Part shown: piece by piece, positions 4,171 through 32,486 of the stretch
How the letters are laid out: the number at the start of each line of letters is the position of its first letter
How positions within the stretch are numbered: the first letter of the stretch is position 1
Source of the DNA: Bispira polyomma
Taxonomy: Eukaryota
Reading direction: 5' to 3'
Assembly: GCA_965649765.1 (NCBI GenBank)
Contig: OZ287755.1
Span: 27,466,001-27,530,000 of the forward strand
Length of the DNA stretch: 64,000 bases
Notes under the pieces: model-generated
What the model saw: the letters and a program-made list of their open reading frames with translations, nothing else
What the model was told of the DNA's origin: nothing
The model's database searches: none
Translations under genes and position numbers: made by a program

Positions 4171-6469
4171 ATTCTATTTGCTGGAATGGAATAGGTGCGA
4201 TGGAAAGGTGCAATATGGGGGTGCGATATTGGGTGCCCCCAACCCCAATTTGAAATTCAGAAATTGGAGTAGAGGGGGGAGGTGCGATTTGTTTGGAGAG
4301 ATAACAGGGATATAGTTGTTGTTTTTTTATTGAATTATAGTTGCATGCACCTCGTTTAAATGTCAATACATTATTACATAAATATGGTTGCCCATCCACT
4401 TTAATTTGATATATAATTATACATATTATTTAATTAAAGCATTTATGACTTAATTCATGTTTAACATTAATATTCAAAGAAATTAGACACTGCATGTGTG
4501 ATGTCAATTCTATTATTATTCAGTCACGGAACCCAACTCATAATTAATAAACATGTCTAGGTAATTGTTAGGCATTTCTGAATTTTTACAACTAGGAATG
4601 GGGAAGGGAGGGGAGGTGCGATCTTTAGAACCTGGAATGATTAATCCTATTTACACTTTAGAATCTGGAATGATCAATCCTATTTTAATAACATATGGGA
4701 TTGCCATCTCTTGTTTAAACAAGATTAAGGTTAGAAATTATTTCCTTGATTCTTAACATGCCTGGTTAACTAATTCTATTGACTGAACTAATTGTTGTTC
4801 AAATAATCCAATAAACTAGCACAGAGTATTGCCATCTTTTGTCAATGGAACTAATGTGTGAATGACAATTGTAATTAACTTCTAATTAATATAAACATCA
4901 TATATATACCTCCCCCCTCCATTCCAAGTTCATAAATATGATAGGGGAGAGGTGGGGGGGTATGAGGAGTAGGGTGCGATCTTTATATTAATGATTTAAA
5001 AGGGGTGAGATCAGCCCATTGGAATAACATATATATGTATATGTATATATATAAAGACTTCTTTGTCAGTTTCCTGGCTTGTATCTAACTATATACATAC
5101 ATGTGTACACCCATATATATATATGTGTCATAGTAGAAAGCCCAATTTGGTAGAATTTTAAATTCTACCGGTAAAAACTCTAATTGGACTTTCTACTGGT
5201 AGACAGTCCAATTATGTTTGTTAATTAAGCAATGACTGGCCTCTGTGTATAATCTGATTAAAAAGTCATACTGCCCTCATATAATGCTCAAGCATCACGC
5301 CCCCGGGGACATCAATATGTAGATCGCACTCCCCCCTCCATTCCAAGTTAAAATGGGGGTGCGATGCTTTTTGAACTTGGAATGGGGGTGCGATCTTTGC
5401 TTACAGTACTTGTGATGTTTGCAGTAGTTAAATTTTTTATAATTTGCAGAGTTTTGTAATTGAGATATAATTTTCAGTATTATTAGGCTGTTCTACTGGT
5501 AGGGTTTCAGATACTTATCTGTAAACTCCGCCCATCTGCGCAGTGACAGAGATACTTAACTGTTTTACTACCAGTCACACAGAAAAAATAAGTATCTACA
5601 ACCGAAGACAAATGGAAATTGACGAAGAAGTATACCACGTGCATGATGGGTGATATATCCATATTTTACCTTAAAAAACAATACTATCAGGGATGCTAAC
5701 CTATTTGTTAAATTATATGTCCATATAAGAGATTTATTCAAGCAAAGATGACTACAAATATATTATTATTTAATTTAATTTTTATCATTATATAAAACGT
5801 CACACAATGTGGTGGAGCAGTCAAAAGTCGAAAACAACTAAATATCCTGATTTGAAAGTTACTACTTCAAAGTGCTCTCTACTGAAACCTATCAAAACCT
5901 TATATTTGCAAGGCAGTCATGTGATTTATTTAGAAAGTTAACCAGCGAGATATGTGTATAACTTCGGTACTTATCATTTTTGAATATTGACCAGACGAAC
6001 AGTGAGAGATACTTATCTTTCTTTCAGATTAAATAAGATAAGTATCTTTCCTACCAGTCGAACGTGGGTACTGTTGCCGGTTTGAACATGGGATATCTAC
6101 TATACCTCGGACTTCATCTCGGATGTATTCGGACTTTTACGGCAATCCTGCATTTCTGATTAATTTACTAATTTGGGGGTAGTATTGAACATTTAGTTCT
6201 TACTTATTATCGTTTGATTTCTTCACATTTTAACGCAATTTTTCAAATGTTCTAGAATTCTCTATAAAACGTTCATATTAATTAAATAGATATGTACATT
6301 GCCATATTATTTTAATTTGTTTCTCACTAGAAACCTAACATAAATTGATATTAATGTAATATATATGCACACTGTCTTCTATAACTTGATTTATTAATAT
6401 GTTTTATACAGCATTAATAAAATATTAAGTTGTTTTATTTGTACATCATCACCCCTCGGACCATCAAAC

Positions 6470-7010
6470 ACAGAGAGTTTTTAGCAACCTACAGCGTTCT
6501 GAGCAATGGCAGTGATGATAATGGTATTGTCTGGATGTTATCACAGTAGTTAGAAACGCTTACCAAGGCAGTAAAAAGTTTACTACATGATGTTAATTTG
6601 GAGATTGTGGCTTCAGTAAATATTCAGTTCATCAGGGGGGCTAGTCCCCAATAGCTTTTAATAACCGTTGTAAGCATGCAAATCATCCTGGATGGCGCAA
6701 AACAGGAATCTGTTTGTCAGAAAATTTCACAAACTGATTCTAGTCCAGCTTTGCAATATACTATATTGGCAAAACGTATCCAGGAATAGGTGGACAGAGA
6801 GCTCTATAGTATGTTGAACTTTAGTATGTTGAATTTGAGTAAAAGGTTCAATCTGGTCACTTTAGAGTAGGTGGTGAAACACCATGCCAGAAGTTTGTAA
6901 TTTGGCCTCATGATTTGTGATTTATTGGAAATGATAAAAGGGTCATTTATGATGAGCTCACTTTGCCTCAGTGGTTTCAAGCGTTTAATATATATGTGTC
7001 TTGAAAGAAC
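6470..7010 (+). pseudogene. Degraded gag fragment of the Ngaro-like family at 9740
   Basis: 6847-6990 translates VQSGHFRVGGETPCQKFVIWPHDL*FIGNDKRVIYDELTLPQWFQAFN, matching VKSGQFRVGWETPCKRFVYWPHDLCFIGSDCKRVTYDELTLLQW at ~10530; left boundary approximate. Confidence 0.75.
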
Positions 7011-7189: not shown

Positions 7190-8040
7190 GGTATCAATAA
7201 TTATAATATAAAACACCACTTATATGCTGATAACACTCAAGTCTATCTATCTTGCAACCCTCGAAATGTAAATAAAATACTGATCTACTCACAGACTGTC
7301 TGTCCGCTGTCCATGCGTGGACAAACTATTCTAAATTGTTATTAAATCCAGACTCTTTGGAAAAAAGAAAAACAGTGAATTCCTAAAATTTTTGTTCCCC
7401 ATTTCCCCTCTGGGAAAAGATATACTATTTTCCGAAAATGCCAAAAACTTGGGTGTCAATAATAACTGTGGCTAATGCTATTGCGAGTAGCTGCCTCGAC
7501 TACTGCGACTCTCTTTTGTTTGGAGTAAACAAATCACAAATTCAAAACTCCAGTCCATTCAAAAATATCTTTGCAGTGTGATTTTTAGTTTGGGTGGTCA
7601 CACAGATGTCACTCCTTACCTCAAAAAAACTACACTGGCTCCCCATTTACTTTTGAATGTTGTTCAAAATTCACGTTACCACTTTTAAAGATGTAGTAAT
7701 TGAATATCCCTCCTACCTTGCTTTTCTTCTCTCTTTCAGTATCCCAAAAAGAGGCAACAGACTTTCTGTTTCTTTGGTCAGACCCACCGGAAAAGCAGGA
7801 TCCAGAGCTTTCTCCATTGCAGCTTCCTTGTTATGGAACAGTCTCCTAGTTGACCACTGATCAGTAGAGACACTCAATGGTTTTAAGAAAAAGCCTAAAA
7901 GCTATCTTTTTAACCTTGCCTACCCACCTTAGTACTTTGCCTGTACGCCCCACATCCTCTCTTACAACTTTGCTATGCTCATGGACTTAACGATTGGATC
8001 ACTGATTCCGCTATTGCACTTTAGAAGATGTCTAAATTGT
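7190..8040 (+). mobile_element. L2-clade LINE 3' relic
   Basis: KHHLYADNTQVYLS (RT YADD region), TPYLKKLHWLPI, SRAFSIAASLLWNSL; 3' tail shared with 45783-45906. Confidence 0.8.
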
Positions 8041-8299
8041 GTCTGATTTGCTTCAAGATGCTATGGATTTGGGCTGGTTGATTGTAAGAGAAAAAGGACA
8101 AAAACGGGCAAGGGTTGGTTACAAATTAAAAAACAATTCACACTGATAATAGTTTGACTTACAATGTAAAAGGTGGGCACCTCTATGCGTATTATTTGTC
8201 TAAAATTCTTAAATCATGTTTTAGTTACTACTTATATCCTAGAAAAAGTACATTGTAATGTATCTTGTCACCCAATAAATAATAATAATGGAAAAAATA

Positions 8300-9720
8300 G
8301 CATGTACAACAAAACTTCAGTAAATGTTTAACAGTCTTACTAATGACAAAAGTAATACTGAAGAAGTTTGTTGTAGGATTTTCAACAGCAAGTTATATGT
8401 TAGTTTTGTCACACTATTGTTACTTTACAAAATTGTCTGTAGTATTGTAAACTCTTACAAACTTAGTAATTTTATTGGCAATGCTTGTTTGTATATGCAC
8501 ACAAGTTTTAGTAAACTTACACTGTAGTAAATGGCCCAGAGGTGGACAATATTAATTTGGACGTCAGTTTTGTGTGAAGGCATATTTCTGGGTGTTGCAT
8601 TTATGGCTGTCGAAAACAGCTATCTATCTAATGTAGTCAATGAACAGTTTGTAGGTACCAGAAGTTCTAGTGTTAATCCAGAATTTATCGTTAGTTTGAT
8701 CTTTACTGTCACCGTCTTTACCATGGGATTCCCCATTATCTGTACTTTGGTCACCATTAGATTCGCTATTGTCTGTACTGTCACCATCAAATTCTCCATT
8801 GTCTGTACTGTCTTCACTATTAATAAGATTATCAAACATCTGATAATTACGATGTACAGCTCACTTTAGAGCTTTTCTGAAGTTATCATCCTTTACCTCC
8901 ATGAGATTTTCAACGTCTTCCATTATTTCCCTGTGTATGGTACTGCGTTTCAACTTGCAGGCTGTAAGCACAATATCTTTGTACTTTTTCACAATGAACT
9001 TTTTATAATTGTATAGTACAACTTCAGTAGCTTTCTGGCATGATTCAAGGTCAGAGTTCACATTTTCTGCATAATCTCCAGCTATTCGACCATATTCGTC
9101 ATTGTATTCATCATAGTTCTCATTGACAATATCATCCCACGTTTTTTATCATTGTTGGGTTTCCAAGACACTGTTTTGAAATAGTTAACTTTATGTCTAT
9201 CAAATCGATACCAAGCAGTTAAATTATAGGTTCTGCTCTGTCAAACTTGCTAAAATTAGAGTTCAGTGTACATCAAGGCTGATGTCATTGACAAGTACAA
9301 ATCAATTTATTATCATTTCTATGCTCATGATACACAACTCCATGTTCATTTATCAAATAAAAATGCAACTTCTGCATTTTAAAGCCTTCAAAGCTGCTTT
9401 GACAATAGTGAGGTTGCGAGAACACTGGCTAGTAGCAAGCTCGTTAAGTGACTGGGGGTCAGGGACGTCTAGCCGAACTACTTTTGTAGAAGTAGTACAT
9501 TTTTGGCACCAACTGGGACGGCCGTATAATTTTATTGGTAACACCGGATTTGTGTTCCAAAGAGATTTATATTTGTGTTACAGGGATAGTTGGTAACACT
9601 GGATTTGTGTTCCAGAGAGATTTTATATTTGTGTTACAGTGATAGATTTTATTGGTAACACCGGATTTGTGTTCCAAAGAAATGGTGTAGAAAACGTTCA
9701 CAAAGAGGCTTATATACTGG
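8300..9720 (-). mobile_element. Degraded cluster of short intronless ORFs, possibly Polinton/Maverick-derived
   Basis: Compact head-to-tail minus-strand ORFs (9353-9544 DVPDPQSLNELA; 8861-9150 helical TWDDIVNENY..HREIMEDVENL; 8624-8839 acidic tail); TATATAAG at ~9710; resemblance from memory only, no hallmark gene. Confidence 0.35.
9528..9680. repeat. Short tandem repeat of ggtaacaccggatttgtgttccaaagag, 3 copies
   Basis: Direct repeats at ~9536, ~9591, ~9654. Confidence 0.75.
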
Positions 9721-9797
9721 TGTCCCAGTTGGTGCCCTAGAAATCTCGAAAGACTCGTGTTATTTCGCTTTTAAGTTTGACTGTGGTTACAGCAGTT

Positions 9798-11122
9798 ATG
9801 AGGAGCTTCAAGAAACCTAAAGGACTAAGTGCTGGTCGGATAGTAGCGACTAGAACCAGCAAAGATACTGTCCCAGCGACGGCTAGCTTGCCAGGGAAGA
9901 AGTTAAAGAAAACTAAACAGAAAGGGACTAACGACAGCTTGTTCGGACCGTTAGGTGGAGCACAGGGTCGAGGTCCAATAGACATTTCAATGCCAACGTC
10001 TATAGCTGTGGAAAGTGGTCAGTTTCCTAGTCGTACAGGAACCAGAAGTGTAGTCAAGGCGAGACTCGCAGCTGAGGCTGCTGGCAGGCTTTCTGTATCA
10101 GAGCTAACTGGTCAGATGAATTCATAGCAAAACCTTGGCAGTGGTGATCCTCAGACGTCAGATGTATTTCAGCAGTTGGGCCAGTTGACGCAGGCGGTGC
10201 ATTTTTTGAATGATGTTAACTCGCAGCTGATGAACCGGGTGGATACTATTGAATCGAGTACAAGTTCGGATGTTGTGGCTGATTCTGGTGTCAGGGCAGC
10301 CGTTACTGCCCCAGTAGTATCTGTTAACCCTCCGAAGATTTTTCCCTCACTGGGAGGGGCGAAATCGTCACATGAACAGTTATAAACTTTCAGATCCGGT
10401 TTGAATGTTGTTAGTTCGGATCTGGCTGTGCAGCAAGAAGTTCAGAGGAGATTACTGGAGATGGAGGATCAAGAGGAGCAAGTACTGGACTTTGGTATGT
10501 CAAATTTTCGAGCTAGTAACCGAAAAGTTAAGTCTGGTCAGTTTAGAGTTGGATGGGAAACCCCTTGTAAGAGGTTCGTGTATTGGCCTCATGATCTGTG
10601 TTTTATAGGAAGTGACTGTAAAAGAGTAACATATGATGAGCTTACATTGTTACAATGGTCGTTGGGTTTCAATAGATGTATTCTTAAAGAATCTGATTTG
10701 CAAGTATAGCAAAACATGCTTAAGTACAGTACTGAGTTAATGCAAAATGCTATGCATCTCGGTTGGTCAGTAGCCAAAGGGGCTCACAGGGTTATTATGT
10801 GTAGTATGGAGGACAGTCTGTTGACCTGGGCTGAACCAGATAAAGTGAATGAGATTCGGCGGCAGTTTGGCCAGAGACAAGTAGTGGCTAATGCCAAGTC
10901 AGGTTATGTTAAGTCAGCTTCCGGTTTCTCCAATAACAGGGAAGTATGTACTAATTTCAGTCAGGCACTTGTGAATCCAGTGTATATCACAAAGTAGGCA
11001 ATGTTTGGCTCAGGCACATTTGTGCTTATTGTATGAATACCATGAATCGGCCATATCCTCATAAGAAAATGGACTATCAAAAGAAAAAAGCAAAAAACGG
11101 TGGCGCTACCTCTCGGCAGTAA
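9798..11122 (+). pseudogene. gag-like ORF of Ngaro-like copy 1
   Basis: ORFs at 9777, 10176, 10401 and 10716 are one frame broken by single stops; WPH..YDELTLLQW motif; frameshifted C-terminal Cys/His finger. Confidence 0.8.
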
Positions 11123-13990
11123 CTAAAGTAGTTAAAGTTAGTAATTGTAAGATTGTTGAGAGGCCTAGTCAAGTAACTGAAAATATTGTTTCACCCCTGG
11201 CAGTACAGCCGAGTTGTAATGTTAATGTATGTTAAAGTGTTCAAAATGCTAGAAATAAGGCTAACTGTAGAGACAATCTGAAAAATGATAGTTTTTAAAA
11301 TGGACGTTAAACCATTGCTCAAGGCAGTAGTACTAATAAGGTAATGGACATTGAAGTAAAGTTAGCCAGTAATGGATGTACCTGTTGTTTAAAGTTAAGG
11401 CAAGACGTCTGTACTTGCATAAGTTGTATATATTGTCTGGTTCAAAAATCCCTTATGGGGAGGGGCATGATAGTTCGCTTGAAGGTGAGCAGAAACCCAT
11501 GTTAAAACAAGTATTTACTGTCACAAATACTAGTTGTCTGGATTATCATCCAGTTATGTCAGGAACATGTGTAAAATCCACACAAAATGGCTGGATTTCA
11601 GCAAGCACAGTATTTCCTTTTGATAGCAAATTTCAAAATTACATCACTGCGCAACAGTCTGCGCAGAAGCGTTTAAATGGTTTGGGCGGAAATGGTCAAA
11701 CTCACTTGAGTTTAGGCAGCAATACTCTGCTAAGTTCTGTCAGAATGGCTCGGGAATGCACTTTAATCCGCGGAAACCTGGTTTCCGCGGTTCGGATAGA
11801 CTTCGTCCTTCCGAGGGGGGCACACAAGCCACTTTTTGCGACACATGTAATATTGTTGTGTCTGAAGTGTTGAATAGTTTGGGGCGTGGCGTTGTTTGTC
11901 GCGCATTAATACATTTTCTCTTATATACTACACCAAATCTGGTGAGGTGGCTGGCGTGTGGGTATATGTCTGACTAGGCTGCAATACCCAGCCAGCACTG
12001 CTGGATTGCTTACCATAGTTGGGCACACACTGAAGTTGTATAATACTTTGGCCTACTTGACTCGTGTGTTACTGGTTTGTTCATATTATGAGGGTACTTG
12101 CATCAAATTTATCTTACAAAGGAGTTTAGCAACTTTATTAGTAGAATTTGTGTACAGGAGACAGGAGTCTTAAAATTATAGCATTAACCATGAGTCTTAT
12201 CAGTAATTCCACACATACAGGCTTACAAAATCACTTAACTAGTAGTAGTTGTATACATAGCAAGGTCTGGCCATATATACTTGGCCCTGTTACTGGACAG
12301 TTCACACTGGGTTGTATTAAAGCAGTGTGTTATAGTCATGTTACCCAGAGTCTGTGTAGTATTATATATGACATTTCTATCTTTGTTATTAAATGTTGTA
12401 TTTATGTATGTATGTGGCAATGGTTACACTTGTATAAGTTCACTCTTGTTTACACAGCACAGGTTGTACTTGACAAGATGTACAGTTTAGTTGGTCTGTA
12501 AATTTGGTGGTTTTTGTATTGGTTCTCTACACACGTTGGGTGTCTTATTGTGCAACTTTGTAGGCATACACAAGGTAAGATTTACACAGTAATGTCTCAC
12601 CGGGTAATCATATAGACAGTAGTCAAGACCTTTCTTCATATTATAATGGTCATTATATACGGTGCATATATCCTGGACAATTTAAATTTGGCTACTTACC
12701 TGCAGGTAGTCAATTAATGCCAATTAATGGCAGCTGCAGTGCAATTAATTGTGATTCAGCAGTACAGTTGAACAAAGTTGTTAATGGTTATGGTGGTTGC
12801 TTTAATTTTGTGTATCCAGGTATTCCAGTACAGTCTTCACTTAACATACCTGTTTGGAGGAAGTTATTGGACAATTATTATGATAAGCAATTAGTGGAAT
12901 TATTGGAATTTGGTTTTGCTATTGATATGCACTCACTCATCAAGACAGTAACCACCCTGCAGCAGGTTCTTACCCAGATCATATTGCCCATTACTTAAAC
13001 ACTGAACATAAACATGGTGCTATTGAAGGTACTCATTATTGCCAGAGAATGACTGACAGTATTCGCTTTATTATGAGAACATAGGGATATGTTGTTTTTA
13101 ACTACATTGATGACATCATAGGTATCCATGCCTCTTATGATGCGGCTATGGCAGCTTACACTTTCTTATTATAACTGCTCTCCAATTTGGGTCTTCCAGT
13201 TAGTCCGGCTAAGTTGGAGACCCCTAGTAAATGTATTACTTGCTCAGGAATTAACATTGATGTTGGAAAGGGTAGTATAAGTTTGCCACCAGATAAATTA
13301 CTTGAAATCACTGAATTGTGTGTTGATTGGTCTAGTGGAAAGTTTGCAACCAAAAATCAAATTCAGAGTATTGCTGGTAAGCTATTGTACATTAGTAAGT
13401 GTGTCAGGCCTGCTAGATTATTCATCAATAGAATCTTACATGTGCTTCGCACTTGGCAAGAAAGAGGCAGGTTTAAGATAAGCAGTTCTTTCAGAGCAGA
13501 TGTCAGATGGTTTATACAATTTCTAGAACAATTTAATGGTGTTGTATTGTATGATAAGCCACAACAGCATAGTAACATTGTGTATGTGGATGCTATGTTT
13601 GACTGGACGTGGGGCAGTATATCAAAACACTGCTTATCATGTAGAGTTGTCCAATATCAAGGATCGACCTAAACTTATTGTTCACTTGAAAATGCTTAAT
13701 GTTTTCACTGCTCTCACTGTGTGGTCGCCTTCATTCAAAGGTTCTCATGTAATTTTGTATTGTAACAATTTGGCAGTAGTCAATGTACTCAATTTTAACA
13801 AGGGTAAGGATGCTTATCTTAATACAGTAGCATATTTGGTTACTTACGGCGTCACATGACATTACTTTGCAGGTTAGACATGTGGCGGGTGTTGATAACA
13901 TGGGGGCCATCTGTTATCTAGATACTCAGACTTAGCCAAACGGGCACAATTTCATGCCAGTTTTCAGCAGTTGCAATTGCTGCAGGTTCC
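11092..13990 (+). pseudogene. pol (RT + RNase H) of copy 1, frameshifted, with internal RT deletion
   Basis: IPVQSSLNIPVWRKLLDNYYDKQLVELLEFGF, NYIDD, GINID..LPPDKL, KCVRPARLFINR, YVDA, HLKMLNV..YCNNLAVV. Confidence 0.85.
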
Positions 13991-14063
13991 CTGTCATGCC
14001 ACCCCCTCACTTGGGATATTTAATGGTTACTATGAATGATTATGTATATGTTTGTTCTTACAG

Positions 14064-15010
14064 GTTCCACCCAGTTAAAACAATTACTGTCTGTGGCTTC
14101 CGCCCAGGCAAAAATGGTGTATCAGCCCAAAACTAGGGCTTGGTATTATAGGACTATGTCCACCTTTCTTAAGTTTTGTGTTACCAAGTCTGTTCAACAT
14201 CTCCAATACTCACTTAGTGTGGTTCTGGCTTACATTGAGCAATTGGTTCAAATTGGGCTCACTTATCCCTCCATTCAAAATCATTTGTCAGCCTTAAAGC
14301 ATTATTTCAGAAGGTTTGGATTGGATGTGGAAATTTTTAGTCATGTCCATGTGGTCATGCTTCTCAAGGCTATCAATAACAATGTCACTAGACAGGTGAA
14401 AGACAGATTTAATATATATTTGTGCTCAATGTGACAGGATCACACATGGTATAGTTTTAAGGCAGTGTTCTTAGTGGCTTTCTTTGGCCTTTTTAGAATA
14501 AGTAACTTGTTGTCACATAGAGTGTTTCAGTATGATTGCAAACGACTGTTATTACGTCGTGATGTGCAGTTTCAATCACGAGGTTTGGTGATACAAGTTA
14601 GATGGACTAAAACTATGCAAAGTAGACAAATTAGTGTGTCGTTGCAGTTACCTTTTATTAATGGTTCTCCGCTTTGTCCAACACAAGCGGTTCAACAGAG
14701 GTTTGATTGCTATCCGGCTTCTCTGGATGCACCACTTTTTGTATTACCTGGTTCTCAAAATCAGTACAAAATTTTGACAGATGTCAAAGTGCGTTATGTA
14801 TTAAAGGACATTTTAGGAGGCCTTGGCCTTAATACTCATACTCTTGGTTTTCATGCATTCAGGCGTTCAGGGGCTTCCCTCCTGTTTCAAAATAATGTTC
14901 CCTTGCAGTGTCTTCAGGCACATGGGACCTCAGATGCGGTTTGGGCTTACTTGTAAACTGGGGCCAATCTCTCCATCATCCCTCAAGCTTTTCAGGCCAT
15001 TCTACCTTAA
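14064..15010 (+). pseudogene. Tyrosine recombinase of copy 1
   Basis: SIQNHLSALKH, FFGLFRISNL (box I R), WTKT, LCP, FHAFRRSGA (HxxR), HGT-SDAVWAYL (catalytic Y); frameshift near 14430 and a stop at 14954. Confidence 0.9.
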
Positions 15011-15206
15011 AAAAAAACTTAGTAAGTATTCCAACTTTCTTTCTTCTTACTTACTTGTTTGGCTTAGGGTGGTTATTATTCTAGTATTCACTTCAAATAA
15101 TCACATAATCTGTAATGGTGGTAGCCATTGGCTAATACTTGTGTGTAATAAAAATACAAACTGTCAGCGTGGTAACATATTGGCTACTATTTGTATGTGA
15201 TTCTGT

Positions 15207-15207
<1 letters not shown>

Positions 15208-15238
<31 letters not shown>

Positions 15239-16780
15239 ATTTTTTATTATACTGACATTGTGTTATACATATACAAATATACAAAATCACATTTTATTAA
15301 TTGTAACACTCAGCCTTAAGGCTTATAAGTCAGTTTAAATATAATATTCTAATTTAATGTGTGTATAAAAAGGTATAAAACTATTATTTTGCAGAAATGG
15401 TAAAATTCACAATTTATTGAACTTTCTATATCTTCAATTCTTTTAAAAATTTTGATTTCCTATATTCCCATAATTTACATAAAAATTTTGCAAATGTTTT
15501 AATATGTTTATCTTTGAGTGACATTAAATTAATAAATTTTTCTTCCGAACTCAAAAGATTAAAGTTTACTTCCACATTTTTAACAACATAATCAAAGAAC
15601 ACTTTTCTATCTCTATCGTAAACTGTACAGTCAATTAAAAAATGCTGTTCGTCTTCTATAAAATTTAAATTACACATTGTACATATCCTACTTGACAAAT
15701 CTCTTTTCTGGTATCTTCCAGTTTCTATGGCTAGAGGCAGTATTCCAGATCTTAATTGGGCAATGAGAGACCTTTCATTTCTATAAAGATTCTGTAATAC
15801 GTATTCTTCTGTATAAATATGAGTTTTATATTTGACATACAATCTTAATTTTGGTTTGGTACATATAGATTCTTGCCATTCGAGATCATTTAAACAAAAT
15901 AGCTTCTCTTCTGCGGTATTTAAATCAATGTCTTCTCCTAGGAGAAGTTTTTCTTGCAAGCCTATCTGATCTAAAATGTTTTCTAGGTCTCCGCTCCAAC
16001 TTTCATTTGTTATGTTCTGAAGATCATGTTCGAATATTTGATATGTTAGTCTCTCATTGTCCATTCTAATAAGCCTATTATAAAACTTAAAGATATTCAT
16101 ATACATTCTGAATTTTGGTTTTAGCCATCCTACATCCAATACATTTACTGGGTTTTTGCATGCACACCCAGAAAATAACGACATGCTCTATTCTGAATTT
16201 TATTGGCATAATTTGAGTGTGCAAAACCCCAAATACCACTACAGTAATCTGTTATAGGTATGATGCCACTTTCATATAATTTTGAGAATGTTTTGAATCC
16301 AATATTTTTATATTGTTTAAATTTTGATATTAATCCACCTAGTGCTCGCCCACCAGCTTCTGATAGTTCTTTTGCGCATACTTTATAATCTAGATGTTCA
16401 TGCAAAGATACACCTAAATACTTATATTGATCAACAATCTCAAGCTTTGAAGAACCAGTAACAAATTTACAACAAGACTGTGGTTTTCGTTTTTTGCGGA
16501 AATGTACTATTTGACTTTTTGATTCGTTTATTAATAAGTGCCATTTTTTGCACCACTGATCCAGTTTAGTCAATAAAAGCTGTAAATGTTCTTCGTTTTC
16601 TGCAATTAAAGCAATATCATCTGCATATAATAATATTGATATCTTTTTGTTACCAAAGGGGACACCTAAACCCATATTTTTTATTTCAATGGCTAAGTCA
16701 TTTATAAAGATTCCAAACAATGTTGGGGACAAATTGTCACCTTGTCTTAATCCTGAATTTACCACAAACCAAGAAGAAAG
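15208..16780 (-). mobile_element. 5'-truncated non-LTR retrotransposon (RTE-X-like) with (TCTA)n tail
   Basis: GLRQGDNLSPTLF, LLYADDIAL, YKYLG; C-terminal LAIETGRY..C..C..EDEQHFLIDC; one frameshift at ~16150; AATAAA followed by a TCTA microsatellite tail. Confidence 0.85.
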
Positions 16781-16869
16781 AATGCATGGAAAATAAACAA
16801 AATATACCAAGACATACTGTTATATATTTGTGTTACTTCAAGGTCTAAAATGGACTCGACTCTGGTCAC

Positions 16870-18211: not shown

Positions 18212-19784
18212 ATGCCTAGATTGAGGAGAGTGAAGAGGAAGATTGTTGAACAGGAGAGAGAGGAGTTTGAAGTGGGAGTATCATCAGATGAGATAGAGAG
18301 GAAGAGGAGAGATGACAGAGAGTCCTGCAGTGAGTGAGAGAGCTGAGAGTGGGAGAGAGGATGCTTCACAAGTATTGCCTGGATCTTCACAGTACAGAGG
18401 ACACATAAAGAAGGCCGGCAAGATGGTCCATGTCATTCTGACAGAGGAGGACGAGGAATCAGTAGTGGATTTTGTCAGAGACAACGAGGTGCTTTTCAAC
18501 AAGCACCATGAACAGTTCAAAGACAGAGCACTGAAGGAGAAGTTGTGGTCCGATTTCGCAGCTACCTGTGGTTTGAAAACCAACGAGGTTAGGCCTTGGT
18601 TTGAGTCGCAGAGGACCTGCTTCGGCAAGTTGATAGTTAAGACCCTATTTTACAGAGCGAAGAAAACTGGCTGATCGCGCTTCTCTTTTCTTGGATATCA
18701 CATCGACAGGCATGTCAAGTCGTCAGGCTTCAAGCCCAGTGCTACGTCTACCCAGGGAGTGTCCCCACCCCGTCAGGGAAGCCACGATGTGTCCAGATAT
18801 TCCAGCATCGGAGAAGAGGGCGACAGCGTCACAAAGACCAGTCTCAGGAGCCTCCAGAGAAGTTCCCCGTCTCGACTCAGCTCAGACGCCAACCTCATGC
18901 TTGGAGAGCACCTCACGCAGATCAGGACACTGATGAGCAGCTTGGTTGGAGAGCAGAGAAGTCCCCAGAAGCCTGTGACCAACCGCAGCGCCTTTTTTGC
19001 TTACCTAGCAGCCGAGGCAGAGAAGTTAGATGTGGGCGAGTTTCAGAAGTTCCGAGACAGCACCTTTTCCTGTCTTAGCCAGATCCAGCAAGGTAGAAGT
19101 CAACCCGTGAGGAGTGCCTTCACCAGACCTGCCCCAACGTCTACCCTGTCGCGAGCGCCTGGATCGAGCTACGTCCCCCGGCAGTGTGTGCAGCAGTCTC
19201 AGCATCCTCAGCTTGTGGTGATGGATAGAGCTACACAGTCTTCGGCTGCTGCACAGAAGCCCGCGTTTCAATCACAGAACTTTCCGTTCCAGCAGTCTCA
19301 GCACCCACCACAGTACGTTGTGGTGGGTACAGCTACAGTGTCTTCAGCTGCTGGGTCGTCTCAGCAGAAGCCTGCTACCACGTTTCAACAACAGAACTTT
19401 CCGTCCCAGCAGTCTCAGCACCCACCACAGTTCGTTGTGGTGGGTACAGCTACAGAGTCTTTGGCTGCTGGGTCGTCCAGTGTCAAGTCGCCGACTTACT
19501 TTAGCTTGGAAGAACATTCAGGGGTTGCTACTAAGTTGATGCCGAGCATTTCTCCTAGTAAGCAGTACTCGAACCCACCTTCTAATGCATCCTTGTTTGA
19601 GGAGTCAGCACACAACACGTCAACGATTTCAAGCTTTCTGACGAAGTACAACAGCAAACTCCCCCAGGACTTCGGTTATGAGACAGTTAGTCCCAGCGCC
19701 CCAGGAATACTGGCAACGCCTTTACCAGTGGACAATCAGCAGTCACAGATTGACAATCAGCAGTCTCAGGCAGTCACAGATTGA
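18212..19784 (+). pseudogene. Harbinger Myb/SANT-like (MADF) DNA-binding protein
   Basis: ATG at 18212; EESVVDFVRDNEVLFNKHHEQFKDRALKEKLWSDFA..WFESQRTCFGKL (MADF); then RSAFFAYLAAEAEKL and a Q/S-rich repeated tail; 2-3 frameshifts. Confidence 0.85.
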
Positions 19785-20309
19785 CAACACACAGCAGCTG
19801 ATCGTCTCGCCAACACCTCAGCCAGAGTCAAAAAAAAAAAGAATCAAAACCTCCCAAAATTGCCCAAGTAAGTATCTAATTGAGATTGAAAATCCCTACC
19901 CCCATTGGAAAAGATTTTGTTGAAAGATAAGGGATACCAAATATGAGATATTGTTAGCAAAAAAAAAGTCTGTCCCTATAAGTACCGAATTGAGATATCA
20001 AGTCCCCATCCCCATAGTAAATGTTTCTGATAAATAATGACAGACAATAATTGCAAGAAATTGTTTTAGAAGGGAAGACAGTACAAAGTCTGTCCCAAAT
20101 AACCCAATAAGTACCAAATTGAGATACAAAACCAAAGGTTGTCAGTATGTCTGTGTGTGTAGGGCTTTTTACATTTTCAATGTTTTTGGGGGGAACTGGT
20201 TAAGTTGTATGTATGCAGGGGCCCTGGGTATTACATTTAGTGATTGTTATTGGTAATAGGTGGGGGGTGGGGGTGTAACAAATAGCTCAGATATTGTTTT
20301 TGAAATAAT

Positions 20310-20361
20310 TGGGTGGTCCTGAAAAGGACCTTTTAAATTTTGGGTGGTCCTGAAAAGGACC
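20310..20361 (-). terminator. Two tandem histone-type 3' stem-loops downstream of the transposase
   Basis: Minus strand: AAAA-GGTCCTTTTCAGGACC-ACCCA twice (stem-loops at 20346-20361 and 20315-20330), starting 75 nt after the transposase stop. Confidence 0.85.
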
Positions 20362-20436
20362 TTTTAAATTTTTTGCTACTGCAAGACCTCTGGGTTGGCT
20401 TCTCATCTGGCTCTTGTGGTTAGGCTCAGGCTCAGG

Positions 20437-21729
20437 CTAAACTCTTTCCTCTTGCCACGGGACAGCCCCCTCATTCATAAAAAAGTCCATTAATACGTCC
20501 CTCTGTTCTTTGGCCGCCCTGGATGGGTTTCTGTGGGTGGTTGGTTGACCTCTTACTAACTGGACCTCGGGTTCAGGTGGATCATCTTGTGGGTTAGGGT
20601 GCTTTAGTGCTGGGTTTCCACACCGGCTTCTCAGTATGTTATGTAATATCACACACATCAATGTCAGATTTGAGGTCACCAGGGGGTGCTGTTACATTGT
20701 CGTCAGTAATAGGCGGAAGCGGCTGGCCAAAATCCCAAAAGAGTTCTCCACTGCCCGCCTTCCCCTGGATATCCTGTAGTTACAAATTCTCTGTGCATGG
20801 GTGAGTTCCCTCCTCGAGTAGGATTTCATCATCCAAGTTTTCAGAGCAAAGGCGTCGTCCCCCAACAGGAAGTATTCCACGTCACGTCAAGACCCCTCAA
20901 ACAGTGGTTAAGGTCTGGGCAGCCCAATGGATGCATCTTCTATCTTCTGCTTGAGGTCTGAGTGGTTAAAAATTTTGGCGTCGGAACAGGAACCACTGCA
21001 TCCAATGTCTACCCAAATAAATCTGTAGTCCGCATCAACCAGGGCAAACAGGACAATGGAGTGGAAGCCTTTATAGTTGTAGAATTCGCTCCCAGCCTTG
21101 GGAGGCTTCTTAATGGCCACGTACTTCCCATCGATAGATCCAACAGCATGAGGGATATTCAACCTGGTCCTGTACACTTCTTCTATTTTCAGCCAGTCTG
21201 CGGGGGTGGTTGGGCAGGCTAGATTTTCTGTCTCTTATTCCGTAATGATGGCCTTGCATTCTTCTGGTATAAACTTGGTGATAGATGACTTCCCCACCAT
21301 GAACTGGTAGGACAGGGATCTGTAGTTCTCCCCAGTGGCCAGGTGCCTTAAAGTTACAGCCAGTTTCAGTCCAACATCCAAGGGCTTTCTGAACCAAGTG
21401 ACTTCTTTCTTCACATGGGGTGTTATCCTATCCTTGATTTCGTCAAATATGTCAGGTGGTAGCCTGAAAAAATTCCTGTATGAGGCTGCATCCCCTTCCT
21501 GTAGCTCCGGCACTAAGTTTGCGTAGTAGCTTAGGGCCTCTCTCTGACCGATCCAAGGCTTGACCCAGCAGGTGGGTGACATACGTGGAAGTCTAATCTT
21601 CTCCGGGGGAGCCCAAGGGGCGCGTGGTGGTGTTTGGTTCAAATCCTCCTGACCCTGAGCCTTGTCTTTCTCATGTTGTAATATAAGCATGAGGATACAT
21701 ATTTCAATCTCAAAAAAACTAACTGGCAT
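20437..21729 (-). pseudogene. Harbinger DDE transposase (HARBI1-like), intronless, frameshifted
   Basis: [94 protein letters not shown]. Confidence 0.95.
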
Positions 21730-22233
21730 TTTACTCACTTACTCAATTATTAATGACCTGATTACTCAAAAATTCTTGAGTTTTAGGGCTCAAAAAGAGG
21801 TACTTATGGGTCTAGAAGCACTCCTGACTTTAATTTTTAGAAAGTTCGAACCTATTGGTCGGGATGACCAATACGTCAGATCCTATAGTCAATACGTTCG
21901 ATCCTAAGTCAATACGTTCGATCCTATCGCCAATAAGTTTGATCCTATTCAGGTCGGGAAGGTCGGGAGTCAATGGAGTTCAAAGTCGTACGACCTTTAC
22001 ATACGATCGGGGTCGCGGGCCCGTCAAAACGGCGCGCAATCAGTTTAATTGGGAAGGTCGGGGCATATTTTCATTTTCCCGCCCAAAAAGTGGATTTTAT
22101 TGATTTTTTGGTCCCGACCTTCCCGACTTTAAAGTCGGGGTTTTTTTGCCGATCGAACTTAAGTGTGGAACCCCCCCTTTAGCATTATAAAAGTTAGATT
22201 GTTGATATTACTATTTTCACATCCTGCGCTTCC

Positions 22234-27896: not shown

Positions 27897-28882
27897 CTAG
27901 GAGTTGTGTAGGATGGAAGCCCTAAAAGAATCCGCAACCTGGGAACCAGCAAACGCCGAATCAGTAATATATCTCCAGACACAATCCGACGTCCAGGTGC
28001 CCTGTCTCTGGATATCTTGAATTCTAACATTGTTATTAAATGCAAACGTGGCACCTGAACATCTGAACACATAAAAAGTGAGACCTGTCTGCTCACAACC
28101 TAACATTTTTAGAACATTTTTTAGATGTCTACGTACTTTGGAATCCGTAAGCGGAACCCAATTTCGCCCACATTTGAACTGAAAGAGGGGAAGATTATCC
28201 CCTACAGGAGTGACAGCCAAAACATTTTTAATCGCTGTAACTGGACAGATGCTGGAACCAGGAAGGGCTGGGATGGTTATGAGCTTGACAACATCTCTAG
28301 TTTGAAGGGTTTTAGACCACTTCACCAATGTAACAGCATAGCCTGGTTTAAACGTAATGTCAGCTCGTGCTAGCTGTTTCAAAGGGTCAAAATCCCTGAC
28401 AGAATGTGGGCACAGATTTGACAAACGCAGGAAACTGAAAAAACTAATCAGATACACAGCTTTGAATACTAGTCCCATATATGTTACATGACATTTCTGG
28501 ATTAATTTTTCCAGCAGTGTGATATCAAACAGTGCCTTCAATTTTGCTTGCAGAGGTTTACTGACCGCCAGAGCCTTGTTGAAATACTTAATTCTGGTAT
28601 CAGAAAAAGCTTCTACTTGTACATGAAACAATACACATTTAGCCTTTATAGCAGAAAGGTAATTGGCAATTTGTGAAGCTGAAACTTTATTACTGTACAA
28701 GAACTCTAAAAAAGAGAGCAACTGCAATACATTCACCTTTTCCGGGCTCCAATCCATGAAAACCCCAAAAGCTATGAAGGTCCTGAACATTCTATCATAC
28801 GCTCTAGAGGTAGACAGAGAGAAGGCTCTGTGAGCTCTTTCACAAGCCTGTCTAACCAACATAAGCTCTCCTGGGTGAATGC
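27897..28882 (-). CDS. Tyrosine recombinase of copy 2 (HxxR histidine mutated)
   Basis: IANYLSAIK, FFSFLRLSNL, WSKT, ICPV, FYVFRCSGAT (HxxR with H>Y), GTWTSDCVWRY; preceded by ttgcAG acceptor. Confidence 0.9.
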
Positions 28883-28909
28883 CTGCAATATACACTATAC
28901 CATAATGAA

Positions 28910-31455
28910 TTATATGTTCTCATTAACCCTGAGCAATGCATGATGCACGGGCAGCCATTGCACAGGGCCTAGCAAGTCATGCAATGCTTTGTGATCTCTG
29001 TTGGTATCAGTCCATTTGGACAGCAAATCTGCTACTTTGTTTTTTACCCCCAAAATGTGAATGACTTTAATGTCGATGTCAAGTTTACTGACCAGCATAT
29101 AAATATTGCGCGTGTATGTGGCTAACGTAGGATCCCTTGTCGATCCGCTTTGCAAAACAGTCACAACTGCCTGGTTATCACACTTGATTAAGACACGTCT
29201 ATTTTGCCAAAGCCGGCCCCATAATTTAATTGCCACCAGTATGTTCAACATTTCTAGGTACGCTATGTTTAGTTCAGTCATATGAGTCGGGAGTTTCAAT
29301 TGGTAGACTTGATTTTGATAAACCCCCCCCCCCCATGCCTGTCAAACAGGCGTCAAGCTCTACTTGAGCTGTAACTGGAATATGAGAGAAAAAGGAAACT
29401 CCATTAAATTGTTGTATAAACACCGAGAACCAATTTAAATCTCTCCTGAATTCCTGAGTTATGTTTATACATTTACTGGTGTGATTGTCTCTCAACAATT
29501 GAAGCATACGATTTAAAAACGCCCTTGCATACTTTACACATTTTGACACGTAAAGTAACAGGCCTAGCAGGGATTGAAGTTCCCGTTTAGTACAAACATT
29601 TTTTGTTTCCCATGCTTCGCAGACGCTCTTAATTGCTTGCAATTTCTCAGGTGGAATCGAGGTAGTGAGGTGAACTGTGTCTATAGTGATACCCAAGCAG
29701 ATTACGGACGTACCAGGATGTACTAATTTTTTTTCACTGACAATTAAACCGAGCTCTGTCAAGAGTTCCTGTAATCTCATATACGTTTTCTGTATTTTGC
29801 TGGGCAGCGAGACACATAAAAAATCGTCGATATAATTGTGGACGTTATGATTTTCTGTTTTCATAATGTACCTCACGGCATCCGAAATTCTTTGAAAAAT
29901 AGTGCTGCCATTCTGATAACCGAACGGCAACGATTTATCTATGTAATATTTTTTCCAATTTAAACCTAATAGGTCTAGGTCACCCGGATCTATGGGCACG
30001 TGACGAAAGGCCCTACTATCGTCCACTTTAAAGATATGACAGCCTTTACCCATCTTAATGACCTCTTGCGTTAGACTGTCGACTGAAGGATATGACAGTA
30101 AAAACTCGGTGCCTAAGTAAGACGTGGGGGAGACCCCTGCATTTACCGAATATCCTTGCGGCCAACTAAGGTCCACAATAACTCTTCTGTTCTCTGAATT
30201 GGCTTTATCTCTCGTCATTAGGGGGGAACAATGTAAGTTTTCGATGGGTGGGTCATCAAAAGGACCTAACATGGCCCCCAGTGAACATTCTTCCGCCATA
30301 TAAAAATCTACATGAGCCGGGAATTCAGTCGCCGATTTATGATTATTCCCCTCATTGTGAGTTTTATTTTCTCGACAAAAATCTAATGGAAAGCCATGCT
30401 TGATCAATAAAGGCAACTGTTTATCCCAATAGTTAAGCAAATACTTATCCCATGCCTGAGTATTTAGCTGCGATTCAACCGGGAGCTTAAGGCCATTAAA
30501 ATTGAACCTGCCATCCGCCCTGACACGCTTGTGTATTTCTAACACGTGTAGTCGTTCCGTTTTTGTGCTTTCTGTGTTATTACTGGTCATGAAATCCGAG
30601 AGAGGTGTGAACCCATAAGCCACATCATTTTGTGCCTGCCACCTTTTGTAATTGTCATTATTCTTTGCCAAGTCTAACAAGAGACGTTTGTTTTTTCTCT
30701 GTTTGAGGCCCCATGTATATTTATCTGAAGGTAAAATGCACTCACTAGTACTGTCCTCCTTATTAAGGTTGTTTGTAGTAGCCAAGCCTGTGTAAAATCT
30801 GGTATCATTATTCTGAACCAGGCCTTGGCCCCCTTTGTTGGCTTGACGCCCTTTACCACACTTGCTATGATCTGTCTGTGCGTTAACCCTCACTGTGGTA
30901 ACATTAACAGGCCCAGTGTGAATGGCACTCCTGCCCCTCTCACTATCCCTGACAGACGCTTTGTGTCTTTTGTTCTCTATTGTGGCAATTTCTGGCCTGG
31001 TAGTTTCAGATTGATTACTCCCCCCTTTCCCCAGAGTGTCAATGTGAGCGAGAATGGCATACCTATTGTGAAGTGGAAGGGCACCCCGGGTTGAATTGTG
31101 TTCACACCTCCTCCCAGATCTCCTGTCCACCCCTTTTGTCTCTTTGTCACTAGACCTCACACTAGGATTGATTGTTTTCACGCCTACCTGCGGTACACCG
31201 CTGGGGAAATGGACTCTTTTGTAACCCTCTGTGTATTTGACTTTCAATAGATTTAGTATTGTTAATACTTCTTTTTACTACGTCGCTATACTTGACAGAG
31301 ATACTCCTGCCTTTCTGATATCTGATCATTTTCTGTACAACCGACTTTTGCAATAAAGCTACATCCCTAAACTGGGTATTATATACAACTCTAGTAAAGA
31401 CTCTGTTATTGACATTTGCATCCACTGCACTTAGGCAGTGGCCCCTTAGTTTTTT
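28910..31455 (-). pseudogene. pol (RT + RNase H) of copy 2
   Basis: RRVIVDLSWP, KVDDSRAFRHV, LPFG, NYIDD, CLGITID, LDACLTG, LEMLNILVA, CDNQAVV, NKVADLLS; frameshifts near 31200 and at a 12-G run (~29330). Confidence 0.92.
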
Positions 31456-32486
31456 AATGCCTTTTTGGGGCACATGCTGCTCCTGTGACTATTGTCACAG
31501 GTTTCGCATGTATGTTTGTAGAACTGCATACCTGTTTTATGACTAGTCGAATGTTTGCATGTGCCATCCTGAAAATAGCGACACGTGACCGCCCCTTGTT
31601 TGAAGTTATTTTTCTTGTGACTACTTCCCAACGTACGAATGCCTGCCCCCGTACCGGTTTGACCTGCATGCAAATGTCTCTGAGCATGGGCTCTACGAAT
31701 TCTGTCAACCTTTTCAATGTCTGACCATTTTAATTTGTCCATCTCCATATTCGTAAGGACGACTGCATGGCAAGCTTTAGCGGCCTCCCAGGAAAAATCC
31801 TGGGCATCCTCCATCAAGCCAGTCATGTAGTCGAGCATAGCGTTTTTATTTTCTTGCAACTTCTCTTCTTGAATGATTCGCGTAAAGCCACAGACCCATT
31901 GCACTACAGTTAGATCATCATAGCTGGGCCGTGCTTTGGTGCTACCCGATAGAACATGATTGTGGGGCCACTCTACAGTTCGTTTCACCAAAACTTCCAA
32001 CCCCCCTCCCCTCTGGGATTTGATCTTACCTTGGGAAGGGCTCTCGTTAATTTGCCTTAGCTCTTTAAGCCTTTGCTCAACCTGGGTTTGAATTTGTACA
32101 TTCTGTCTCAGAAATTCAATACTGGGAACAATCCTGGTGTCAGGTACGCCAGCGCTCTGACGGCTATCGCCCAAGTCTACAGAACTAATTTGCGAGACTG
32201 AATTTTTACTTGCCTGATTGTTAGAATTTTCCACCAGCGCTGCCTCTGTGAGCTGAACCCGTCGATCCATGCTCTGCACTGCCTGACTAATCGACTGCAG
32301 CTGTTTCAATATAACAGTCGACATATCTCTCTCACCAGAGACCGACACTGAATCCGACGGGTCCACCTCAGCTGAGTCAGCAACTGTATTCCCCAAAGAT
32401 ATGTCCAAAACATTACAATGTCGACCAACCGGCCTTGGGTGTTTCCCCAAACATTTGGAGCAGTATACACTCGAACGACGTGGCAT
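31446..32486 (-). CDS. gag-like protein of copy 2 (346 aa)
   Basis: Open frame; N-terminal CxxCxxxHxxPxGxxC; WPH..YDDLTVVQW; C-terminal C-x6-C-x5-H and CxxCxxxHxxxxC fingers. Confidence 0.9.
   Translation of the reverse strand: MPRRSSVYCSKCLGKHPRPVGRHCNVLDISLGNTVADSAEVDPSDSVSVSGERDMSTVILKQLQSISQAVQSMDRRVQLTEAALVENSNNQASKNSVSQISSVDLGDSRQSAGVPDTRIVPSIEFLRQNVQIQTQVEQRLKELRQINESPSQGKIKSQRGGGLEVLVKRTVEWPHNHVLSGSTKARPSYDDLTVVQWVCGFTRIIQEEKLQENKNAMLDYMTGLMEDAQDFSWEAAKACHAVVLTNMEMDKLKWSDIEKVDRIRRAHAQRHLHAGQTGTGAGIRTLGSSHKKNNFKQGAVTCRYFQDGTCKHSTSHKTGMQFYKHTCETCDNSHRSSMCPKKALKN

What the first reader, a model, noticed from the sequence alone, without database searches (positions are those of the whole stretch)
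9798..15010. Independent replicate of the gag-to-YR splice in divergent Ngaro-like copy 1 (and donor in the third gag relic)
Seen: donor TTTG|GTATGT at 10495 (phase 1), just before the same K-x-K-S gag motif, and acceptor tttgttcttacAG|G ending at 14063 (phase 1) at the head of YR. The gag relic at ~6824 also retains GTATGT at the homologous position. Copies 1 and 2 share only short protein motifs, so matching position and phase argue for selection rather than chance (inference).
Basis: partly seen in the sequence, partly recalled or inferred. Interest (0 to 1): 0.7.

Follow-up and report, generated by a model that had tools for sequence, protein, structure and literature searches.

The report
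Retrotransposon recombinase spliced onto gag
A group of animal jumping genes seems to make its integration enzyme by splicing it in frame onto the front half of its structural protein, rather than by the ribosomal frameshift proposed in print, but no spliced RNA has been seen yet.

Summary
The donor (10495) and acceptor (AG ending 14063) are present and both phase 1. Two details are wrong. The donor lies 9 codons before K-V-K-S, not directly before it. The relic's GTATGT sits in a 15-bp duplication and is no independent support.

Related elements support the splice. A phase-1 YAG heads the recombinase (YR) in 30 of 30 elements, against 390 of 1232 control windows. A phase-1 GTA donor follows the same gag helix in 8 of 8 gags, against 8 of 32 protein-conserved Gly-Lys/Arg sites. 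The published pol-to-YR frameshift is impossible in 13 of 20 elements, whose ORFs do not overlap. 17 of 29 YRs lack a well-placed Met.

Best reading: Ngaro-like elements make a Gag N-half–YR fusion from a spliced subgenomic RNA. No RNA evidence was obtainable, and copy 1 is dead. The copies share ancestry, so this is deep conservation, not independent origin. The scan noted similar splicing on other DNA before. I did not find it in the papers searched; two key papers were unavailable.

The parts
9408..15200 (+). Copy 1: decayed Ngaro-like YR retrotransposon (gag, RT/RH, YR); 3' end cut off near a minus-strand LINE
   Evidence: Homology to copy 2 proteins; Pfam SAM-like and integrase hits; left end inferred from loose contig ends at 9408; right end approximate
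9798..10494 (+). Predicted exon 1: gag N-half (basic N-terminus, coiled coil, QxxVxxR helix), 232 codons + 1 nt, with two in-frame stops in this copy
   Evidence: matches the gag N-half profile over residues 123-228
10495..10500 (+). Predicted phase-1 splice donor, TTTG|GTATGT, 15 codons after the helix Arg and 9 codons before K-V-K-S
10495..14063 (+). Predicted 3569-nt intron holding the gag C-half and all of pol; retained in the genomic RNA
   Evidence: splicing is inferred, not observed
11092..11098 (+). A AAA AAC heptamer near the gag end; candidate -1 frameshift into pol
   Evidence: same heptamer in the gag frame with an open -1 frame in copy 2, L016 and L025; frame not testable in copy 1 because of indels
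12645..14023 (+). RT and RNase H remnants, broken by stops and frameshifts; ends at a stop at 14021-14023
   Evidence: tblastn with copy 2 pol; translation
14051..14063 (+). Predicted phase-1 splice acceptor, TTTGTTCTTACAG|G; in-frame ATGs at 14036, 14042 and 14048 lie upstream of it
14064..15010 (+). Predicted exon 2: tyrosine recombinase, 314 codons after the split codon, with internal stops
   Evidence: 33% identical to copy 2 YR over 299 aa
6807..7009 (+). gag relic related to copy 1; GTATGT at 6809 and 6824 inside a 15-bp tandem duplication
   Evidence: weak, not independent
32024..32029 (-). Copy 2 phase-1 donor, CAAG|GTAAGA, after 152 gag codons from ATG 32486
   Evidence: best of 67 GT in that gag ORF
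28883..28900 (-). Copy 2 phase-1 acceptor TTGCAG|G ending 28883, with a second in-phase TAG 12 nt upstream (28895)
27897..28882 (-). Copy 2 tyrosine recombinase exon, 327 codons, open

Best explanation
These Ngaro-like elements express their third ORF from a spliced subgenomic RNA. Shown in sequence: a phase-1 donor in the linker after the gag N-half, a phase-1 acceptor at the head of YR, both conserved across divergent elements. Inferred step 1 (about 0.85): the host spliceosome removes the 3.1-3.6 kb between them from part of the transcripts, giving one ORF, Gag N-half + YR (152+1+327 codons in copy 2; 232+1+314 in copy 1 as it stands). Inferred step 2 (about 0.7): unspliced RNA is the genome and the mRNA for Gag and, by -1 frameshift or UGA readthrough at the gag end, for Gag-Pol. 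Inferred step 3 (about 0.55): the Gag N-half coiled coil lets the fusion co-assemble with Gag, so the recombinase travels with the cDNA, as Gag does for integrase inside Gag-Pol of LTR elements. Copy 1 is dead and only inherited the sites.
For: Acceptor: best-scoring AG in the 75 nt before the YR anchor is phase 1 in 27 of 29 elements, controls 210 of 593. A phase-1 YAG lies 12-45 nt before the anchor in 30 of 30, controls 390 of 1232; 14 of 14 clusters at 50% identity; T at -5 in 29 of 30 and at -6 in 28 of 30. Donor: phase-1 GTA 12-20 codons after the helix Arg in 8 of 8 gags, first or second of all GT in each gag ORF. L016 keeps GTAAGT on an Arg codon instead of Gly. Protein-conserved Gly-Lys/Arg sites elsewhere read GGT-A in 8 of 32 (Fisher p 1.7e-4). 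In 67 gag cluster representatives the residue after the linker Gly can start with A in 56 (background 275 of 639), and in 27 of 38 after removing K/R (background 139 of 503). In the AlphaFold model of copy 2 gag the donor falls just after helix 130-148 and before the compact domain of residues 161-272. Copy 2 gag 45-152 modelled as three copies: score 0.59, best of 3 controls 0.01; runs agree in at least 36% of contacts, partner pLDDT at least 58; the mark was reached by 21 of 30 solved pairs and 0 of 23 single chains (eukaryotes 17 of 29, animals 7 of 16, only 1 of 7 without an older relative); three copies are outside the calibration and coiled coils resemble many solved structures, so the pass may be from memory.
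Against: No spliced RNA or fusion protein was seen. Copy 1's donor is only moderate (F before the Gly; T at -2) and three in-frame ATGs precede its acceptor; 12 of 29 elements have a Met by profile position 10. The scored rule missed 2 of 29 (L021, L030). Only 6 related loci were long enough for the donor test, and the search windows were set after seeing the data. In one search, 11 of 67 did not fit, and 4 more proteins had no Gly in the window; 69 of 145 lacked the anchor motif and 5 were too short. No branch-point enrichment (15 of 30 vs 11.7 in shuffles, p 0.15). Splice scores used my own approximate weights, not ones trained on this genome. Pairing of this donor with this acceptor rests on matching phase only.
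Confidence: 0.82

Rival explanations
1. The acceptor is real but is joined to another upstream exon: a short intron from the end of pol (giving Gag-Pol-YR), a leader or mini-exon near the gag start, or a trans-spliced leader.
For: Acceptor conservation (30 of 30) is better sampled than the donor (8 of 8). A phase-1 GTA-type site at the RNase H G-K/R motif occurs in 7 of 21 pol tails. Earlier scan notes describe other YR elements with one shared first exon and several acceptors.
Against: Best donors in pol tails are spread over phases 8/7/6 of 21, and no pol column exceeds 5 of 13 rows. No consistent donor near the gag ATG and no consistent acceptor before gag or in pol. A leader without a start codon would not fix phase 1 (inference).
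Confidence: 0.08
2. YR is made by programmed ribosomal frameshifting from the end of the RT/RH ORF, the model of Poulter and Butler 2015 as quoted in PMC13003380.
For: 5 of 20 elements, copy 2 among them, show a short -1 overlap of YR with RH, as the quote describes; 2 of 20 are in-frame adjacent.
Against: 13 of 20 have no overlap (gaps 6-306 nt) and none of the 5 overlaps holds an XXXYYYZ heptamer. In copy 1 two in-frame stops (14021, 14033) lie between the RH end and YR. All 5 overlapping elements also carry the acceptor; a T-rich acceptor tract lacks stops and would itself lengthen the ORF upstream (inference). It may still hold for other Ngaro lineages, which I did not examine.
Confidence: 0.04
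3. YR is translated from its own ATG by reinitiation or from an internal promoter; the splice-like sites are by-products of AT-rich spacers and Gly-Lys codons.
For: Copy 1 has three in-frame ATGs at the YR head and copy 2 has one 7 codons after the acceptor; 12 of 29 have an early Met.
Against: 17 of 29 have no Met by profile position 10 and 15 none before position 27, which would drop the first conserved helix. Met positions scatter from -30 to 130 while the acceptor holds phase and position. Gly-Lys/Arg controls give 8 of 32.
Confidence: 0.06

Closest known systems
Ngaro-like tyrosine-recombinase retrotransposons (order DIRS)
   Same: gag, RT/RH, YR in that order on one strand; no methyltransferase after RH; description in PMC9210276, PMC4157794, PMC8547959 (passages).
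   Different: In print YR is thought to be made by frameshifting (quote in PMC13003380, section 17). Here it appears spliced to the gag N-half. The A1...B1A2B2 repeat layout was not shown, and no SGNH ORF follows YR in the loci translated.
Spliced env mRNA of retroviruses and Drosophila gypsy (errantiviruses)
   Same: Third ORF read from a subgenomic spliced RNA while unspliced RNA serves as genome and gag/pol mRNA; pol by frameshift (PMC4276936, passages).
   Different: That mRNA lacks gag and pol sequence. Here 111-232 gag codons stay as a fused domain, and the third ORF is the integration enzyme.
Spliced short gag RNA of plant Ty1/Copia elements
   Same: Conserved alternative splicing of a retroelement RNA sets protein stoichiometry (PMC5580714, abstract).
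   Different: That splice yields Gag alone; this one would yield a Gag-enzyme fusion and skips the reverse transcriptase.
DIRS1-like and PAT-like elements
   Same: Same enzyme set, separate YR ORF.
   Different: They carry a methyltransferase domain, and DIRS1-like ones inverted repeats (PMC3266345, PMC4157794, passages); neither was found here. Their YR heads were not examined.

Membership tests
Ngaro-like YR retrotransposon | gag, RT/RH and YR in separate ORFs, same strand, YR last | tested here: met
Ngaro-like YR retrotransposon | No methyltransferase domain after RNase H | tested here: met
   pol ends 33-36 aa after the D.LSR motif in 8 of 8 pols printed and 22-38 aa in 20 of 20 located; no methylase family in 7 pols scanned
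Ngaro-like YR retrotransposon | Split direct repeats A1 ... B1 A2 B2 | tested here: inconclusive
   No match between left and right ends in copy 1 or 2. One contig per run joins left-end 9536 to right-end 15079. L004 and L008 have 211- and 713-nt direct repeats before gag and after YR, but no B1/B2 pair
Ngaro-like YR retrotransposon | Falls in the Ngaro clade of RT/RH and YR trees | not tested
   No named reference sequences were on hand; the tree holds only unnamed relatives
DIRS1-like retrotransposon | Methyltransferase domain; inverted terminal repeats | tested here: not met
   flanking repeats found in L004 and L008 are direct
U2-type spliceosomal intron | GT...AG ends with compatible phase | tested here: met
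U2-type spliceosomal intron | T-rich tract before YAG, purine after | tested here: met
   T at -5 29 of 30, at -6 28 of 30, purine at +1 29 of 30 (in 7 loci the T-richest of several phase-1 sites was taken)
U2-type spliceosomal intron | Branch-point motif | tested here: inconclusive
   YTRAY in 15 of 30 vs 11.7 in shuffles, p 0.15
U2-type spliceosomal intron | Exon junction seen in RNA | not testable with these tools
   No RNA holder listed

The most novel reading that the evidence does not exclude
A broad lineage of animal Ngaro-like retrotransposons uses a three-tier scheme: Gag from unspliced RNA, Gag-Pol by recoding, and a Gag N-half–recombinase fusion by splicing, in which the Gag coiled coil is the packaging tag for the recombinase. 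Their YR proteins as annotated are then N-terminally incomplete, and the spliced RNA, which keeps both ends, could be copied as a short pol-less element.
Probability: 0.55. Interest if true: 0.78.

Novelty: new variant of a known kind. Interest (0 to 1): 0.66.

Why it matters
How YR retrotransposons express and package a recombinase encoded in a third ORF, with no protease and often no start codon, is open; the explanation in print is a frameshift. A conserved splice gives exact, testable junctions and a different protein to purify. It would also change how these YR genes are annotated and how tagged Ngaro elements must be built. It would be a retroelement parallel to retroviral env splicing that fuses the integration enzyme to Gag.

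Tried and rejected
No whole genome is held, so genome-trained splice scoring and a copy survey were not possible.

RNA: no RNA holder listed. The three runs of unknown kind cover copy 1 evenly with about 2100 contigs each. No 10494-14064 joint is among the 15 joints shown (114 not shown); no difference at donor or acceptor is among the 40 shown (1095 not shown). Neither blank is evidence.

Fusion proteins: none of the best 150 of 389 gag N-half profile hits carries YR; the longest of the 120 listed YR relatives is 354 aa and of 48 gag relatives 404 aa. Listed sources were all 'ena' assemblies, many on long contigs and probably genomic gene calls, so this is uninformative.

No relatives in viral contigs or genome contigs.

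A 5' leader intron or pol acceptor, prompted by earlier scan notes: no consistent site in 8 gags and 8 pols (the script stopped at copy 2 pol). A pol-tail donor: not conserved. Hairpins after the slippery heptamer: z -0.9 to -3.3, only L016 notable.

Gag fold: no Foldseek match at E 0.001, only generic long helices at Z about 5, no sequence match in PDB; the C-domain was not searched alone.

The relic as third witness: rejected.
Full report
OBSERVATION. Both sites are at the stated places and both are phase 1: donor TTTG|GTATGT at 10495, acceptor TTTGTTCTTACAG|G ending 14063, 3569 nt apart. Copy 2 on the minus strand has the matching pair at 32029 and 28883. Three details need correction. The copy 1 donor is 9 codons before K-V-K-S, against 0 in copy 2. 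The relic's hexamer has A at -1, lies in a 15-bp tandem duplication and falls outside the 73% DNA alignment with copy 1. The two copies are 31-45% identical over long protein stretches, so they are homologues, about 2.5 substitutions per site apart in YR, with no DNA match. Copy 1 is dead: stops and frameshifts break gag, pol and YR. Sister contigs differ from it at its three gag stops.

RELATED ELEMENTS. No genome was held. A YR alignment fetched 32 loci from metagenome contigs. Four lacked the YR head (L012, L028, L029, L031) and were dropped; L015 was dropped as too near the contig end and included.

ACCEPTOR. With an untrained score, the best AG in the 75 nt before the YR anchor was phase 1 in 27 of 29 elements (25 of 27 related loci plus both copies; misses L021, L030), against 210 of 593 control windows. 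Without a score, 30 of 30 had a phase-1 YAG 12-45 nt before the anchor, against 390 of 1232 controls; the 30 fall in 14 clusters at 50% identity (L015 assigned by hand), all positive. T stood at -5 in 29 and at -6 in 28 of 30, a purine at +1 in 29. That window was set. No branch-point excess was found. By eye, the N-termini of database YRs show the same trace: an F/L/Y/I-rich run, then a residue that can end in CA or TA, then usually Gly (not counted).

DONOR. Six related loci held a whole gag. In these and in both copies, the best GT 8-24 codons after the Arg of a QxxVxxR helix was phase 1 and followed by A, 8 of 8 (window set). It ranked first among all GT of the gag ORF in 6 and second in 2. 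In L016 it is C|GTAAGT on an Arg codon, so the nucleotides outlast the Gly. As a control, protein-conserved Gly-Lys/Arg sites read GGT-A in 1 of 7 (KSG), 0 of 7 (zinc knuckle) and 7 of 18 (RNase H), 8 of 32 in all. Among 145 further gag representatives, 76 had the anchor motif, 5 were too short and 4 had no Gly; in the other 67 the residue after the linker Gly could start with A in 56 (background 275 of 639), and in 27 of 38 without Lys/Arg (background 139 of 503).

RIVALS. The model in print is a frameshift from RT/RH into YR (Poulter and Butler 2015, seen only as quoted in PMC13003380 section 17). The RH end was located in 20 of 30 elements: 13 have no overlap with YR, 5 a 7-55 nt overlap in -1 without a slippery heptamer, 2 are in-frame adjacent. 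In copy 1 two stops separate the RH end from YR. An own ATG is possible in copy 1 and in 12 of 29 elements, but 17 lack a Met by profile position 10 and 15 before position 27. A donor in the pol tail is not conserved, nor is a leader or pol acceptor.

MECHANISM. Shown: the sites and their conservation. Inferred: part of the transcripts lose the gag C-half and pol, giving Gag N-half + YR. Unspliced RNA gives Gag and, by recoding, Gag-Pol: copy 2, L016 and L025 have A AAA AAC in the gag frame with an open -1 frame, copy 1 has the same heptamer, and L002, L004, L008 and L014 have gag-TGA-pol in one frame. The predicted gag structure (mean pLDDT 81, pTM 0.49) has a knuckle, a long helix 53-91, helices 123-148 and a compact domain from about 161; the donor at residue 153 lies in the linker. 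Copy 1's N-half lacks the knuckle but keeps the long helix and QxxVxxR helix. Copy 2 residues 45-152 were modelled as a three-chain bundle, score 0.59 against best control 0.01, with the caveats listed under evidence. YR retrotransposons lack a protease (PMC3783388, passage), so a fusion would persist. I therefore propose the coiled coil as a packaging tag; this last step is the least secure.

WHAT IS KNOWN. The elements fit Ngaro by ORF order and lack of methyltransferase; the repeat layout is inconclusive and no tree with named references was made. Nine library searches listed no paper on a gag-YR splice. I read keyword passages of PMC6681497, PMC7192593, PMC4157794, PMC3783388, PMC9341512, PMC9210276, PMC3266345, PMC8547959, PMC9940879, PMC4495291 and PMC4276936, passages and sections 12 and 17 of PMC13003380, and the abstract and outline of PMC5580714. 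The Ngaro papers PMC3783388, PMC9210276 and PMC3266345 hold no occurrence of 'splic' or 'intron', and PMC8547959 none of 'splic'. Goodwin and Poulter 2004 and Poulter and Butler 2015 were not held. No supplements and no Repbase entries were read; they could hold an earlier mention. Earlier scan notes on other genomes report splicing in Ngaro-like elements from a shared first exon to several acceptors; they are unchecked, and that layout was not found here.

VERDICT. A conserved in-frame gag-to-YR splice is likely (0.82) but not seen in RNA. It is a new variant of a known kind; interest 0.66.

Noticed in passing
window 11092-11098 (+), 31449-31455 (-); L016:1057, L025:1041; L002:1122, L004:1562, L008:3007, L014:1317: Two alternative gag-to-pol junctions in one lineage: an A AAA AAC heptamer with an open -1 frame, or a single in-frame TGA between gag and pol.
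   Followed up: partly
window 9798-10130: Copy 1 gag begins with a Lys/Arg-rich stretch and lacks the CxxC...H..P.G..C knuckle found in the 7 gags of alignment A2.
   Followed up: partly
L008:1-1575 and 7350-8062; L004:1-211 and 5288-5498: The same direct repeat lies before gag and closely after YR, followed by a short C-rich motif in both loci; this does not fit A1...B1A2B2 simply.
   Followed up: partly
window 9535-9680: 2.5 copies of a 55-bp unit in the left end of copy 1.
   Followed up: no
window 15207-16819 (-): LINE reverse-transcriptase remnant with an (ATAG)n tail next to the 3' end of copy 1.
   Followed up: no
window 18284-21738: PIF/Harbinger-like transposon: MADF ORF on plus, DDE_Tnp_4 nuclease pieces on minus.
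   Followed up: no
window 47542-53856: About 198 copies of a 32-bp satellite, 91% matches, with strong GC skew.
   Followed up: no
window 42840-43235 (-): Weak Ig_3 match (E 7e-4, below cut-off), perhaps a host exon.
   Followed up: no
P0281, P0302, P0303: Gag relatives of 620-689 aa with long low-complexity inserts between the coiled coil and the second helix.
   Followed up: no
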